Shown here piece by piece: positions 36,001 through 39,000 of a stretch of 42,529 nt of DNA. A program made the position numbers. Origin of the DNA: a virus (taxonomy: Duplodnaviria; Heunggongvirae; Uroviricota; Caudoviricetes); IMG/VR virus record IMGVR_UViG_2718218227_000014, one strand, 5' to 3'. Position 1 is the first letter of the stretch. Each line of letters begins with the position of its first letter.

Positions 36001-39000
36001 GACCGCAGTTAGCGCACGTTAAAGCCCGCTCGACGCTTTCTTGTTCGTAACTTCGATTTTGGTCAATCACCTTGTTTTCCTCGCACAATGTCTTAGCCAC
36101 CGGATATCCCACAGGTGAGCCGTGTAGTTGAAGGTTTTTACGTCAGATTCTTTTGGGATTGGCTTGCGTTTATTTCTGGAGCGTTTCGTTGGAAGGTATT
36201 TGCAGTTTTCGCAGATGATGTCGGTGAAACTTCGTCGCTGTCGTCTCATGCCGCCCTGTCTCCCCATCGCGCTTTCATGCCAGCGATGCGCAGTTCATCG
36301 CATTGTTGATCGTCGCCAACCAGTACGGCCTTAATCCGTGGACGAAAGAAATTTACGCCTTCCCTGATAAGCAGAACGGCATCGTTCCGGTGGTGGGCGT
36401 TGATGGCTGGTCCCGCATCATCAATGAAAACCAGCAGTTTGATGGCATGGACTTTGAGCAGGACAATGAATCCTGTACATGCCGGATTTACCGCAAGGAC
36501 CGTAATCATCCGATCTGCGTTACCGAATGGATGGATGAATGCCGCCGCGAACCATTCAAAACCCGCGAAGGCAGAGAAATCACGGGGCCGTGGCAGTCGC
36601 ATCCCAAACGGATGTTACGGCATAAAGCTATGATTCAGTGTGCCCGTCTGGCCTTCGGATTTGCTGGTATCTATGACAAGGATGAAGCCGAGCGCATTGT
36701 CGAAAATACTGCATACACTGCAGAACGCCAGCCGGAACGCGACATCACTCCGGTTAACGATGAAACCATGCAGGAGATTAACACTCTGCTAATCGCCCTG
36801 GATAAAACATGGGATGACGACTTATTGCCGCTCTGTTCCCAGATATTTCGCCGCGACATTCGCGCATCGTCAGAACTGACACAGGCCGAAGCAGTGAAAG
36901 CTCTTGGATTCCTGAAACAGAAAGCCACTGAGCAGAAGGTGGCAGCATGACACCGGACATTATCCTGCAGCGTACCGGGATCGACGTGAGAGCTGTCGAA
37001 CAGGGGGATGATGCATGGCACAAATTACGGCTCGGCGTCATCACCGCTTCAGAAGTTCACAACGTGATAGCAAAGCCCCGCTCAGGAAAGAAGTGGCCTG
37101 ACATGAAAATGTCCTACTTCCACACCCTGCTGGCTGAGGTTTGCACCGGTGTGGCTCCGGAAGTTAATGCTAAGGCGCTGGCCTGGGGAAAACAGTACGA
37201 GAACGACGCCAGAACCCTGTTTGAATTCACTTCCGGCGTGAATGTTACTGAATCCCCGATCATCTATCGCGACGAAAGTATGCGCACCGCCTGCTCTCCC
37301 GATGGTTTATGCAGTGACGGCAACGGCCTTGAGCTGAAATGCCCGTTTACCTCCCGGGATTTCATGAAGTTCAGGCTCGGTGGTTTCGAGGCCATAAAGT
37401 CGGCTTACATGGCCCAGGTGCAGTACAGCATGTGGGTGACGCGAAAAGATGCCTGGTACTTTGCCAACTATGACCCGCGTATGAAGCGTGAAGGCCTGCA
37501 TTATGTCGTGGTTGAGCGGGATGAAAAGTACATGGCGGGTTTTGACGAGATGGTGCCGGAGTTCATCGAAAAAATGGACGAGGCACTGGCTGAAATTGGT
37601 TTTGTATTTGGGGAGCAATGGCGATGAAGCATCCTCACGATAATATCCGCGTAGGCACGATCACTTTCGTCTACTCCGTTACGAAGCGAGGCTGGGTATT
37701 TCCCGGCCTTTCTGTTATCCGAAATCCGCTGAAAGCCCAGCGGCTGGCTGAGGAGATAAATAATAAACGGGAGGCGATATGCACAAAGCATCTCCTGTTG
37801 AGTTAAGAACGAGTATTGAGATGGCACATAGCCTTGCTCAAATTGGAGTCAGGTTTGTGCCAATACCAGTAGAAACAGACGAAGAATTTCATACGTTAGC
37901 CACATCCCTTTCGCAAAAGCTGGAAATGATGGTGGCGAAAGCAGAAGCAGATGAGAGAGACCTGGTATGACAACCACTGAATGCATTTTTCTGGCAGCGG
38001 GCTTCATATTCTGTGTGCTTATGCTTGCCGACATGGGACTTGTTCAATGACACCTCAGCAAGAAAACGCCCTTCGCAGTATTGCCCGTCAGGCTAATTCT
38101 GAAATCAAAAAAGCCAGACAGCCGTTTCCGGATAAAAACGTCGATGACATTTGCCGTAGCGTACTGAAGAAGCACCGCGAAACGGTAACGCTGATGGGAT
38201 TCACACCGACTCACTTAAGTCTGGCAATCGGCATGTTAAACGGCGTCTTTAAGGAACGGTGAACATGAAAAGCAAAATCATCAGGGAGCTACAGGCTCCT
38301 TTTTTATTATTCGCATTCACCCTCAAGCGTATTAACCAACAATTCAGGGATTAATGGAAGATGGCAGACATCATTGATTCAGCATCAGAAATTGAAGAAT
38401 TACAGCGCAACACAGCAATAAAAATGCGCCGCCTGAACCACCAGGCTATATCTGCCACTCATTGTTGTGAGTGTGGCGATCCCATAGATGAGCGAAGACG
38501 CCTGGCCGTTCAGGGTTGTCGGACTTGTGCAAGTTGCCAGGAGGATCTGGAACTTATCAGTAAACAGAGAGGTTCGAAGTGAGCGAAATTAACTAGAAGC
38601 CAAAGATAAAATCATCGCTGAGCAGGAGAAAATCGCTAACGGAGAAAAGACAGTAAGTCAGTATATGAAAACCGCATGATATCATCAGATAAAAATCGAT
38701 CGTAAAGCGAAATATTAATACCAGAATAAACGAGTCGAGGTAAATTATATTACCTCGATAAATTAACTAAAACTTGCCCGCTATATACTATCTCATTCAG
38801 TATCATCACGCGCGGTCTGTGCATATGTTACTACCGCACCTAATGTATTAATTTTCTTTTCAACATAGATAATATTATCGTACTCATAATTGCCATACGG
38901 ATAGCAAATGCGAATATTCTCATGTAGATCGGGGTCATCCACCTCAGCTCCAGAACAACTTTTTGAACTACCGGAAGTATACCGATACGGTGCAACATAA

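What the first reader, a model, noticed from the sequence alone, without database searches (positions are those of the whole stretch)
38361..38582. TraR/DksA-type zinc-finger protein in the early-left operon
A 73-aa C4 zinc-finger protein of the DksA/TraR type lies next to the recombination genes; such proteins bind the RNA polymerase secondary channel and can reprogram host transcription.
Basis: partly seen in the sequence, partly recalled or inferred. Interest (0 to 1): 0.3.

Follow-up and report, generated by a model that had tools for sequence, protein, structure and literature searches.

The report
Lambda Orf73 (TraR-like) gene, orphaned copy
This is an ordinary, already characterised phage gene: the lambda orf73 gene, whose small zinc-finger protein plugs into the host RNA polymerase and shuts down ribosome synthesis. 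Here it sits in a crippled prophage that has lost the promoter that normally drives it.

Summary
The ORF is real: 38361-38582 (+), ATG to TGA, 73 aa. Its DNA is 100% identical to the phage 434 gene, and its protein is 72/73 identical to phage lambda Orf73 (A49 here, V49 in lambda).

Lambda Orf73 is a characterised TraR homologue (Gopalkrishnan et al., mBio 2022). It binds the RNA polymerase secondary channel, inhibits rrnB P1 with an IC50 of about 50 nM without ppGpp, and raises phage yield 3- to 4-fold.

All TraR hallmarks are present:
- N-terminal D3-x-x-D6-x-A8 motif
- CxxC-N17-CxxC zinc site
- R46/R47
- a C-terminal helix

Pfam PF01258 passes its cut-off. An AlphaFold model matches TraR in RNAP complexes best. 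RefSeq already names the gene "TraR/DksA family transcriptional regulator". Similar DNA occurs in 3316 of 5426 complete E. coli genomes.

One correction. The window is a defective 434-like prophage at ybhC in the O157:H7 lineage. A 7.66-kb deletion removed the start of bet, plus gam, kil, cIII, N, nutL, pL, cI, cro, O and P. The "early-left operon" has no promoter or antitermination system, and two terminator-like hairpins lie upstream. This copy is probably silent or weakly expressed.

The parts
38361..38582 (+). orf73 coding sequence (73 aa plus TGA). It is a TraR-family RNAP secondary-channel binding protein, the phage 434 allele of lambda Orf73.
   Evidence: ORF. Pfam PF01258. 100% DNA identity to phage 434. 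72/73 aa identical to lambda Orf73. RefSeq name 'TraR/DksA family transcriptional regulator' WP_000763363.1.
38367..38384 (+). Codons 3-8 (D-I-I-D-S-A), the DxxDxA motif at the tip of the N-terminal helix. In TraR this motif reaches the RNAP active-site region.
   Evidence: Read directly from the sequence. Among 54 homologues, D6 and A8 are invariant and D3 is present in 53. D3N and D6N substitutions cripple lambda Orf73 in vitro (PMC9239242).
38463..38537 (+). C4 zinc-binding globular region, C35-x2-C38-x17-C56-x2-C59. It also carries two extra cysteines, C36 and C53.
   Evidence: Read from the sequence. The Pfam match covers residues 33-64. C35 and C56 are invariant, C38 is in 52/54 and C59 in 53/54. 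The extra C53 is in 53/54 and C36 in only 21/54.
38490..38507 (+). Codons 44-49, E-R-R-R-L-A. R46/R47 correspond to TraR R48/R49 (beta' rim-helix and beta'Si3 contacts). E44..R47-L48 is the ExxRL variant of TraR's ExxRK. A49 is the only residue that differs from lambda (V49).
   Evidence: Alignments to TraR. R46 is in 54/54, R47 in 52/54 and A49 in 48/54 homologues. Roles of TraR E46/R49/K50 are from PMC6970531, and ExxRL is from PMC8614690.
38529..38567 (+). Predicted C-terminal helix (residues 57-69), equivalent to the TraR C-terminal helix that contacts the beta lobe-Si1.
   Evidence: AlphaFold2 model shows helices H5-27, H44-49 and H57-69, with pLDDT about 90 over residues 31-70. E64 is invariant.
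38283..38310 (+). Intrinsic-terminator-like hairpin (8-bp stem, T6 tail) 50-78 nt upstream of the orf73 start. It corresponds to the predicted terminator 't2' of Bloch et al. 2014.
   Evidence: Terminator scan. RNA fold of -10.2 kcal/mol, z = -3.5. Stem and T6 tail are identical in lambda and 434; 434 differs at one base further into the tail. Terminator predicted in PMC4195576.
38278..38310 (+). Published in-silico promoter 'p1' (-35 TCATCA, -10 TTTTATTAT), which overlaps the hairpin. It is the only candidate promoter left for orf73 in this prophage. It is weak and has not been tested.
   Evidence: The sequence is identical to the p1 boxes listed in PMC4195576. The consensus scan used here did not detect it.
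37688..37720 (+). Stronger terminator-like hairpin inside orf60a, probably lambda tL3. That name is recalled from memory and was not verified here.
   Evidence: Scan. Fold of -17.6 kcal/mol.
36258..36276 (.). Deletion junction. To its left is the 5' end of ninE (minus strand). To its right is bet, lacking about 46 N-terminal codons. Relative to phage 434, 7,656 bp are missing: gam, kil, cIII, ea10, N, nutL, pL/oL, cI, pR, cro, cII, O, P, ren, ninB and a methylase.
   Evidence: blastn of the window against phage 434, using the 434 annotation. The bet ORF is only 215 aa. RefSeq marks bet as a pseudogene missing its N-terminus.
36279..38262 (+). Remnant of the pL operon upstream of orf73: truncated bet (to 36950), exo (36947-37627), orf60a/DUF1317 (37618-37806), orf63/DUF1382 (37779-37970) and a 71-aa orf61-type ORF (38047-38262).
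   Evidence: ORFs, Pfam, PHROG 303, 434 annotation.
38579..38596 (+). Relic of the ea22 start, GTG AGC GAA ATT AAC followed by TAG. It overlaps the orf73 stop as in lambda. Homology with lambda ends here, which marks a mosaic boundary.
   Evidence: Three-way DNA alignment. Lambda ORF list.

Best explanation
The ORF is the orf73 gene of a lambdoid prophage, and its product belongs to the TraR family. The mechanism is inferred from near-identity to lambda Orf73 and homology to TraR. The 73-aa protein would insert its N-terminal helix into the secondary (NTP-entry) channel of E. coli RNA polymerase. The DxxDxA tip (D3, D6, A8) would approach the active site. The Zn-bound globular domain (C35/C38/C56/C59, R46/R47) would sit on the beta' rim helices and Si3. 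The C-terminal helix would contact the beta lobe-Si1. Binding changes RNAP conformation allosterically. Promoters that form short-lived open complexes, such as rRNA and r-protein promoters, are then inhibited without any need for ppGpp. In an active phage the gene is transcribed early from pL with N antitermination, and it diverts host resources to raise burst size. In this window the gene is intact, but its operon has lost pL, nutL and N through a 7.66-kb deletion, and terminator-like hairpins lie upstream. This copy is therefore most likely silent or only weakly expressed from an internal promoter. It is a conserved passenger of a cryptic prophage rather than an active regulator.
For: Shown here:
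- The ORF and its coordinates.
- 72/73 identity to lambda Orf73 and 100% DNA identity to phage 434.
- Pfam PF01258 above its gathering score and PHROG 54 at E 2e-25.
- TraR is the best full-length PDB sequence hit (E about 1e-4), and BLASTP against TraR gives 34% identity with E 1e-9.
- The motifs DxxDxA, CxxC-N17-CxxC and RR are conserved in 54 homologues.
- An AlphaFold2 model (pLDDT 80.7) has the TraR helix-globule-helix layout.
- Its best Foldseek PDB hits are TraR in RNAP complexes, 6n57_M and 5w1s_M (prob 1.00, TM 0.57), followed by YbiI and DksA.
- dN/dS is 0.06-0.17.

From the literature on lambda Orf73 (PMC9239242):
- It competes with DksA for RNAP.
- It inhibits rrnB P1 (IC50 about 50 nM) and rpsT P2 without ppGpp.
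- D3N and D6N variants lose activity.
- It complements a dksA-null strain.
- It slows host growth and raises phage yield 3- to 4-fold.

Operon loss: colinearity with phage 434 breaks at 36257/36277. The 434 annotation shows what lies in the gap. RefSeq marks bet as a pseudogene next to ninE. The Sakai prophage Sp3 is described as lacking CI/Cro and O/P, with a disrupted Exo/Bet/Gam system (PMC2669165).
Against: No biochemical test was done on this A49 allele. No expression data exist for this copy. Bloch et al. 2014 predicted a promoter (p1) just upstream of orf73, and in phage Phi24B they saw orf73 mRNA levels exceeding those of upstream genes, especially after H2O2. Expression independent of pL therefore cannot be excluded. 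NCBIfam TIGR02419 (TraR family) scores 55.7 bits, just under its 59.7-bit cut-off. Lambda Orf73 activates promoters weakly if at all, unlike TraR, so 'works like TraR' holds for inhibition only. An earlier study reported the opposite effect of orf73 on phage yield (cited).
Confidence: 0.88

Rival explanations
1. The orphaned copy is still functional in the host. It would be transcribed from its own promoter (p1, overlapping the t2 hairpin), perhaps under oxidative stress. It would act as a prophage-derived, ppGpp-independent brake on rRNA synthesis, or as a modulator of co-resident Stx phages.
For: The gene is intact and 100% identical to the phage 434 gene despite heavy decay around it (IS insertions, large deletion). 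The p1 boxes are identical to those predicted in lambda and Phi24B. In Phi24B, orf73/ea22 mRNA exceeded upstream genes after H2O2 (PMC4195576). The same deletion junction with an intact orf73 occurs in at least 298 complete genomes.
Against: p1 is only a BPROM prediction. Its hexamers are poor (my count: about 3/6 and 4/6 matches at 18-nt spacing). The consensus scan found no + strand promoter there, and promoter-like sites in the region are no more frequent than in shuffles. The O157:H7 lineage is young, so an intact gene need not reflect selection. Lambda Orf73 slows growth when expressed, so constitutive expression would be costly.
Confidence: 0.1
2. The protein's main role is in the lysis-lysogeny decision or in blocking host DNA replication initiation (the 'bin' function), rather than in global reprogramming of transcription.
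For: Deletion studies from the Wegrzyn group classed orf73 as pro-lysogenic (PMC8614690). Earlier work implicated orf73, ea22, ea8.5 and orf55 in inhibiting host replication initiation (cited in PMC9239242).
Against: These are phenotypes, not mechanisms, and they are compatible with RNAP binding as the primary activity. Lambda Orf73 reduced dnaA mRNA only weakly if at all. Point mutants in the RNAP-contacting D3/D6 residues reproduce the yield defect.
Confidence: 0.05
3. It is a generic zinc-ribbon protein, for example a nucleic-acid binder, that only superficially resembles TraR.
For: C4 zinc ribbons are common. Foldseek E-values are modest (1.6e-3) because the protein is tiny. NCBIfam TIGR02419 is just below its cut-off.
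Against: The alignment to TraR spans the full length and includes the N-terminal DxxDxA helix, which lies outside the zinc ribbon. There is one-residue difference from the biochemically characterised lambda Orf73. TraR structures rank first by both sequence and fold.
Confidence: 0.01

Closest known systems
Bacteriophage lambda Orf73 (Gopalkrishnan et al., mBio 2022, PMC9239242; called 'Orf2310' in the ribosome-profiling study that paper cites)
   Same: 72/73 residues are identical. It has the same length, the same six cysteines, the same DxxDxA, RR and ExxRL motifs, and the same position between orf61 and the ea22 start in the exo-xis region.
   Different: A49 replaces V49, and A is the consensus of the clade (48/54). 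One base differs just upstream of the ATG (GGAAG here, GAAAG in lambda). ea22 and ea8.5 downstream are replaced by other genes, as in phage 434. In this window the pL promoter, nutL and N are deleted.
Phage 434 gene CPT_434_37, 'zinc finger domain protein' (OL657226.1)
   Same: The 222 nt are 100% identical. The flanking exo-xis, int and nin/Q/lpxR regions are 98-99.9% identical and colinear.
   Different: Phage 434 is a complete phage with pL, N and its immunity region. The window lacks 7,656 bp of it and carries IS insertions.
F-plasmid TraR (PDB 5W1S, 6N57/6N58, 6PSQ-6PSV)
   Same: Same size (73 aa) and same helix / Zn-globule / helix architecture. DxxDxA, CxxC-N17-CxxC and R48/R49 equivalents are all present. 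It is the best structural match. Lambda Orf73 inhibits rrnB P1 with the same IC50.
   Different: Only 34% identical. It has two extra cysteines and L in place of K50 in the Si3-contact motif. Lambda Orf73 activates promoters weakly if at all. It is encoded by a phage rather than by a conjugative transfer operon.
DksA (E. coli)
   Same: Shares the PF01258 zinc-finger module and the RNAP secondary-channel binding site. A DksA-RNAP structure is a weaker fold hit (7khi_M).
   Different: DksA is 151 aa, presents its acidic tip on a coiled coil and needs ppGpp for full activity. The pairwise BLASTP alignment is not significant (E = 2).

Membership tests
TraR family (short TraR/DksA-type C4 zinc-finger RNAP-binding proteins) | Match to the dksA/traR C4 zinc-finger model (Pfam PF01258) above its gathering score | tested here: met
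   35.8 bits against a cut-off of 24.9, E 7.7e-9, residues 33-64.
TraR family (short TraR/DksA-type C4 zinc-finger RNAP-binding proteins) | Match to NCBIfam TIGR02419 'C4_traR_proteo' above its curated cut-off | tested here: inconclusive
   Full-length match (profile 1-64 of 64), E 5.6e-15, but 55.7 bits is below the 59.7-bit cut-off.
TraR family (short TraR/DksA-type C4 zinc-finger RNAP-binding proteins) | About 70-75 aa, with a single N-terminal helix instead of the DksA coiled coil, then a Zn globule, then a C-terminal helix | tested here: met
   73 aa. The AlphaFold2 model has H5-27, a globular 28-56 region and H57-69. The TraR elements are residues 2-27, 28-57 and 58-73 (PMC6970531).
TraR family (short TraR/DksA-type C4 zinc-finger RNAP-binding proteins) | N-terminal DxxDxA motif | tested here: met
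   D3-I-I-D6-S-A8. Conserved in 53, 54 and 54 of 54 homologues respectively.
TraR family (short TraR/DksA-type C4 zinc-finger RNAP-binding proteins) | CxxC-N17-CxxC zinc site | tested here: met
   C35-x2-C38-x17-C56-x2-C59. Zinc binding itself was not tested.
TraR family (short TraR/DksA-type C4 zinc-finger RNAP-binding proteins) | Arginine pair equivalent to TraR R48/R49 (rim-helix and Si3 contacts) | tested here: met
   R46/R47 align with TraR R48/R49. Present in 54/54 and 52/54 homologues.
TraR family (short TraR/DksA-type C4 zinc-finger RNAP-binding proteins) | ExxRK motif contacting beta'Si3 (linked to activation) | tested here: not met
   The sequence is E44-R-R-R47-L48, so L replaces TraR K50. 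The same holds for lambda Orf73 (PMC8614690). This is consistent with the weak activation reported for lambda Orf73. It bears on activation, not on family membership.
TraR family (short TraR/DksA-type C4 zinc-finger RNAP-binding proteins) | Fold closest to TraR | tested here: met
   Foldseek PDB ranks 1-2 are 6n57_M and 5w1s_M (prob 1.00, TMq 0.57/0.56, 68-70 aligned columns).
TraR family (short TraR/DksA-type C4 zinc-finger RNAP-binding proteins) | Binds the RNAP secondary channel and inhibits rRNA promoters without ppGpp | not testable with these tools
   Shown for lambda Orf73, which differs by one residue (PMC9239242). Not shown for this allele.
Lambda orf73 orthologue (exo-xis region gene of lambdoid phages) | Near-identity to lambda Orf73 and synteny (exo, orf60a, orf63, orf61, orf73, ea22 start) | tested here: met
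   72/73 aa identical. The flanking ORFs and intergenic hairpin are conserved, and the first 5 codons of ea22 are retained.
Lambda orf73 orthologue (exo-xis region gene of lambdoid phages) | Transcribed as part of the N-antiterminated pL early-left operon | tested here: not met
   pL/oL, nutL, N and everything from cIII to bet codon ~46 are absent. The truncated bet abuts ninE.
DksA proper | About 150-aa protein with an N-terminal coiled coil carrying the acidic tip, and ppGpp-dependent activity | tested here: not met
DksA structures are weaker fold hits with TMt of about 0.3.

The most novel reading that the evidence does not exclude
The intact orf73 in this promoter-less cryptic prophage is expressed from its own, possibly stress-responsive, promoter (p1). 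It would then act as a domesticated, ppGpp-independent down-regulator of ribosome synthesis in O157:H7-lineage cells, or in trans on co-resident Stx phages. The near-invariant fifth cysteine (C53) of the Orf73 clade might serve as a redox or alternative zinc ligand that tunes this activity.
Probability: 0.08. Interest if true: 0.4.

Novelty: already known. Interest (0 to 1): 0.1.

Why it matters
It matters little as a discovery. The gene family, its structure and its mechanism are published, and RefSeq already annotates the gene. The useful result is a correction to the context. This copy sits in a decapitated pL operon, so its presence should not be read as evidence that this prophage can reprogram host transcription. 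Orf73-type genes occur in about 61% of complete E. coli genomes, in up to six copies. Whether orphaned copies in cryptic prophages are ever expressed is a small but testable question for EHEC physiology and Stx-phage cross-talk.

Tried and rejected
- A literature search for the lambda tL3 terminator, meant to name the hairpin at 37688-37710, returned only unrelated uses of 'TL3'. The tL3 label therefore rests on memory.
- Consensus sigma-70 scans of 33000-39900 found no + strand promoter upstream of orf73. Promoter-like sites were no more frequent than in shuffled sequence. I could neither support nor exclude the published p1 prediction.
- BLASTP against E. coli DksA gave no significant alignment. 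The link to DksA comes only through the Pfam model and weak fold hits.
- NCBIfam equivalog models for TraR (NF010268) and YbiI-like proteins (NF008243) scored far below their cut-offs. The protein is an orthologue of neither.
- The other ORFs overlapping the interval, 38351-38458 (-) of 35 aa and 38488-38592 (+) of 34 aa, were set aside as by-products of the real frame.
- One paper search was rejected for syntax.
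Full report
**1. The observation**

An ORF runs from ATG 38361 to TGA 38580-38582 on the + strand and encodes 73 aa. 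A purine-rich stretch (AGGGA at 38346-38350, GGAAG at 38356-38360) precedes the ATG. The protein has six cysteines. Four of them form C35-x2-C38-x17-C56-x2-C59.

The ORF is not a chance one:
- Pfam PF01258 (dksA/traR C4 zinc finger) scores 35.8 bits against a gathering score of 24.9.
- PHROG 54, 'DksA-like zinc-finger protein', matches residues 1-71 at E 2e-25.
- Pairwise dN/dS among six alleles (window, 434, lambda, CFT073, an O145 strain and a bovine isolate) is 0.06-0.17 where computable. This shows purifying selection on this frame.

**2. What it is**

The 222 nt are 100% identical to a phage 434 gene annotated 'zinc finger domain protein', and to phage 2B8. They are 99.1% identical to 933W, VT2-Sakai and many Stx phages.

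In reference lambda (J02459) the same ORF is unannotated. It lies between orf61 and ea22, and its product differs at one residue: V49 in lambda, A49 here. This ORF is lambda orf73.

RefSeq annotates the identical gene in E. coli O157:H7 genomes as 'TraR/DksA family transcriptional regulator' (WP_000763363.1). Similar DNA is present in 3316 of 5426 complete E. coli genomes, in up to six copies per genome.

**3. Mechanism: what is shown and what is inferred**

*Shown by others for lambda Orf73* (Gopalkrishnan et al., mBio 2022, PMC9239242):
- The purified protein competes with DksA for RNAP.
- It inhibits rrnB P1 (IC50 about 50 nM, like TraR) and rpsT P2 without ppGpp.
- D3N and D6N variants lose most activity.
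- The gene complements a dksA-null strain when induced.
- Expression slows host growth.
- orf73+ lysogens yield 3- to 4-fold more phage than D3A/D6A or deletion mutants.
- Unlike TraR, it activates thrABC, argI and rpoH P3 weakly if at all.

[quoted passage not shown] - a Zn globule on the beta' rim helices and Si3;
- a C-terminal helix on the beta lobe-Si1.

*Shown here for the window protein:*
- The phmmer and BLASTP alignments to TraR run from residue 1, giving 34% identity and a pairwise E of 1e-9.
- The motifs D3xxD6xA8, R46/R47 (TraR R48/R49), E44..R47-L48 (TraR ExxRK) and E64 are present.
- In an alignment of 54 homologues down to 57% identity, D6, A8, C35, R46, C56 and E64 are invariant. 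D3, C38, R47 and C59 are at or above 96%.
- A49 is the clade consensus (48/54), so lambda's V49 is the unusual state.
- An AlphaFold2 model (mean pLDDT 80.7) has helices 5-27, 44-49 and 57-69.
- Its best PDB fold matches are TraR bound to RNAP, 6n57_M and 5w1s_M (prob 1.00, TM about 0.57). E. coli YbiI and DksA follow.

*Inferred:* this allele binds the secondary channel and inhibits rRNA and r-protein promoters as lambda Orf73 does.

**4.

The window is a lambdoid prophage in inverted orientation. Tail, head, terminase, lysis, Q and nin genes lie on the minus strand. Then, on the plus strand, come bet, exo, orf60a, orf63, orf61, orf73, orf55, xis, int and the host gene ybhC.

The bet ORF is only 215 aa, lacking about 46 N-terminal codons, and it abuts ninE.

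blastn against phage 434 shows colinearity on both sides of a break. Window 32548-36257 matches 434 positions 41727-38035. Window 36277-37655 matches 434 positions 30378-29000.

The missing 7,656 bp of 434 carry the start of bet, gam, kil, cIII, ea10, a Nun-like gene, N, nutL, pL/oL, cI, pRM/pR, cro, nutR, cII, O/ori, P, ren, ninB and a methylase.

The window also contains four IS629/IS1203-type transposase ORFs, one of them interrupting the Q region. This fits the published description of O157 Sakai prophage Sp3: lambdoid, no CI/Cro, no O/P, and a disrupted Exo/Bet/Gam system (PMC2669165). In this window, however, int and exo are intact. The junction-spanning 4.2 kb (34500-38700) is matched over at least 80% of its length in 298 complete genomes; the best matches are 100% identical O157:H7 strains.

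**5. Consequences for expression**

In lambda, orf73 is reached by N-modified transcription from pL. In this window there is no pL, no nutL and no N.

Two terminator-like hairpins lie on the + strand upstream of orf73:
- 37688-37710, inside orf60a (-17.6 kcal/mol). It is probably tL3, but that name is from memory only.
- 38283-38301 plus a T6 tail (-10.2 kcal/mol, z = -3.5). It is conserved in lambda and 434 and matches the predicted 't2' of Bloch et al. 2014.

Bloch et al. also predicted a promoter, p1 (-35 TCATCA, -10 TTTTATTAT), overlapping that hairpin, and the boxes are identical here. By my count the hexamers are weak. The consensus scan found no + strand promoter in that position, and promoter-like sites overall did not exceed the shuffled expectation.

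I therefore infer that this copy is silent or weakly expressed. This is an inference, not a measurement.

**6. Comparison with known families and novelty**

The protein is a member of the TraR family and an allele of lambda orf73. It is not a DksA: it is 73 aa, has no coiled coil, and BLASTP against DksA is not significant.

Two tested features were not fully met:
- NCBIfam TIGR02419 falls 4 bits short of its cut-off.
- The Si3-contact motif is ExxRL rather than ExxRK, as in lambda Orf73. This is in line with that protein's weak activation.

Neither result argues against membership.

**7. Verdict**

This is a correct but ordinary finding: a well-characterised phage gene that is annotated in public databases and very common in E. 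coli. The only addition is that in this window its operon has been decapitated.

Interest is 0.1. Novelty: already known.

Noticed in passing
window 38047-38262 (+); lambda J02459 30839-31024 (locus L002 3013-3325): A 71-aa ORF (MTPQQ...KER; PHROG 303; RefSeq 'hypothetical protein') is intact here, in phage 434 and in other E. coli prophages. Reference lambda has one extra A in an A-run (A7 versus A6), which splits it into the 61-aa 'orf61' and a 60-aa remainder. The much-studied lambda orf61 therefore looks like a frameshifted allele.
   Followed up: partly
window 36258-36276 (junction); 36279-36950 (truncated bet): A 7,656-bp deletion relative to phage 434 removes the whole immunity, N, pL, pR and replication region, and fuses the ninE 5' end to bet at about codon 46. 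The prophage has neither early promoter.
   Followed up: yes
window 38517-38519 (codon C53) and 38466-38468 (codon C36): Of the two 'extra' cysteines that distinguish lambda Orf73 from TraR, C53 is nearly invariant in the Orf73 clade. It is present in 53 of 54 homologues down to 57% identity, from Escherichia, Citrobacter, Enterobacter and Kosakonia. C36 is variable (21/54). The published idea that the extra cysteines merely perturb folding does not explain why C53 is conserved.
   Followed up: partly
window 38579-38596 and 38597-39620: The first five codons of lambda ea22 (GTG AGC GAA ATT AAC) survive, overlapping the orf73 stop, and are followed by TAG. Homology with lambda ends there. ea22 and ea8.5 are replaced, as in phage 434, by a minus-strand 200-aa predicted membrane protein (38793-39395; C-terminal 88 aa match PHROG 1416; no Pfam hit).
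   Followed up: partly
window 39638-39805 (+): A 55-aa ORF differs from lambda Orf55 by one residue (PHROG 676). Donaldson and colleagues modelled lambda Orf55 as resembling the T7 Gp2 RNAP inhibitor. If so, a second candidate RNAP-binding small protein lies 1 kb downstream of orf73.
   Followed up: no
window 1-891 (-), 5319-6209 (+), 14219-15109 (-), 31238-32547: There are four copies of a 296-aa IS3-family (IS629/IS1203-type) transposase ORF within one prophage. The copy at 31238-32547 interrupts the Q region relative to phage 434. Some O157:H7 strains carry a further copy inside exo, which is intact here.
   Followed up: partly
window 33454-34413 (+): A lipid A deacylase LpxR-family gene, a moron on the strand opposite to the nin/Q genes, sits between a Q fragment and the Q82-like gene, exactly as in phage 434.
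   Followed up: no
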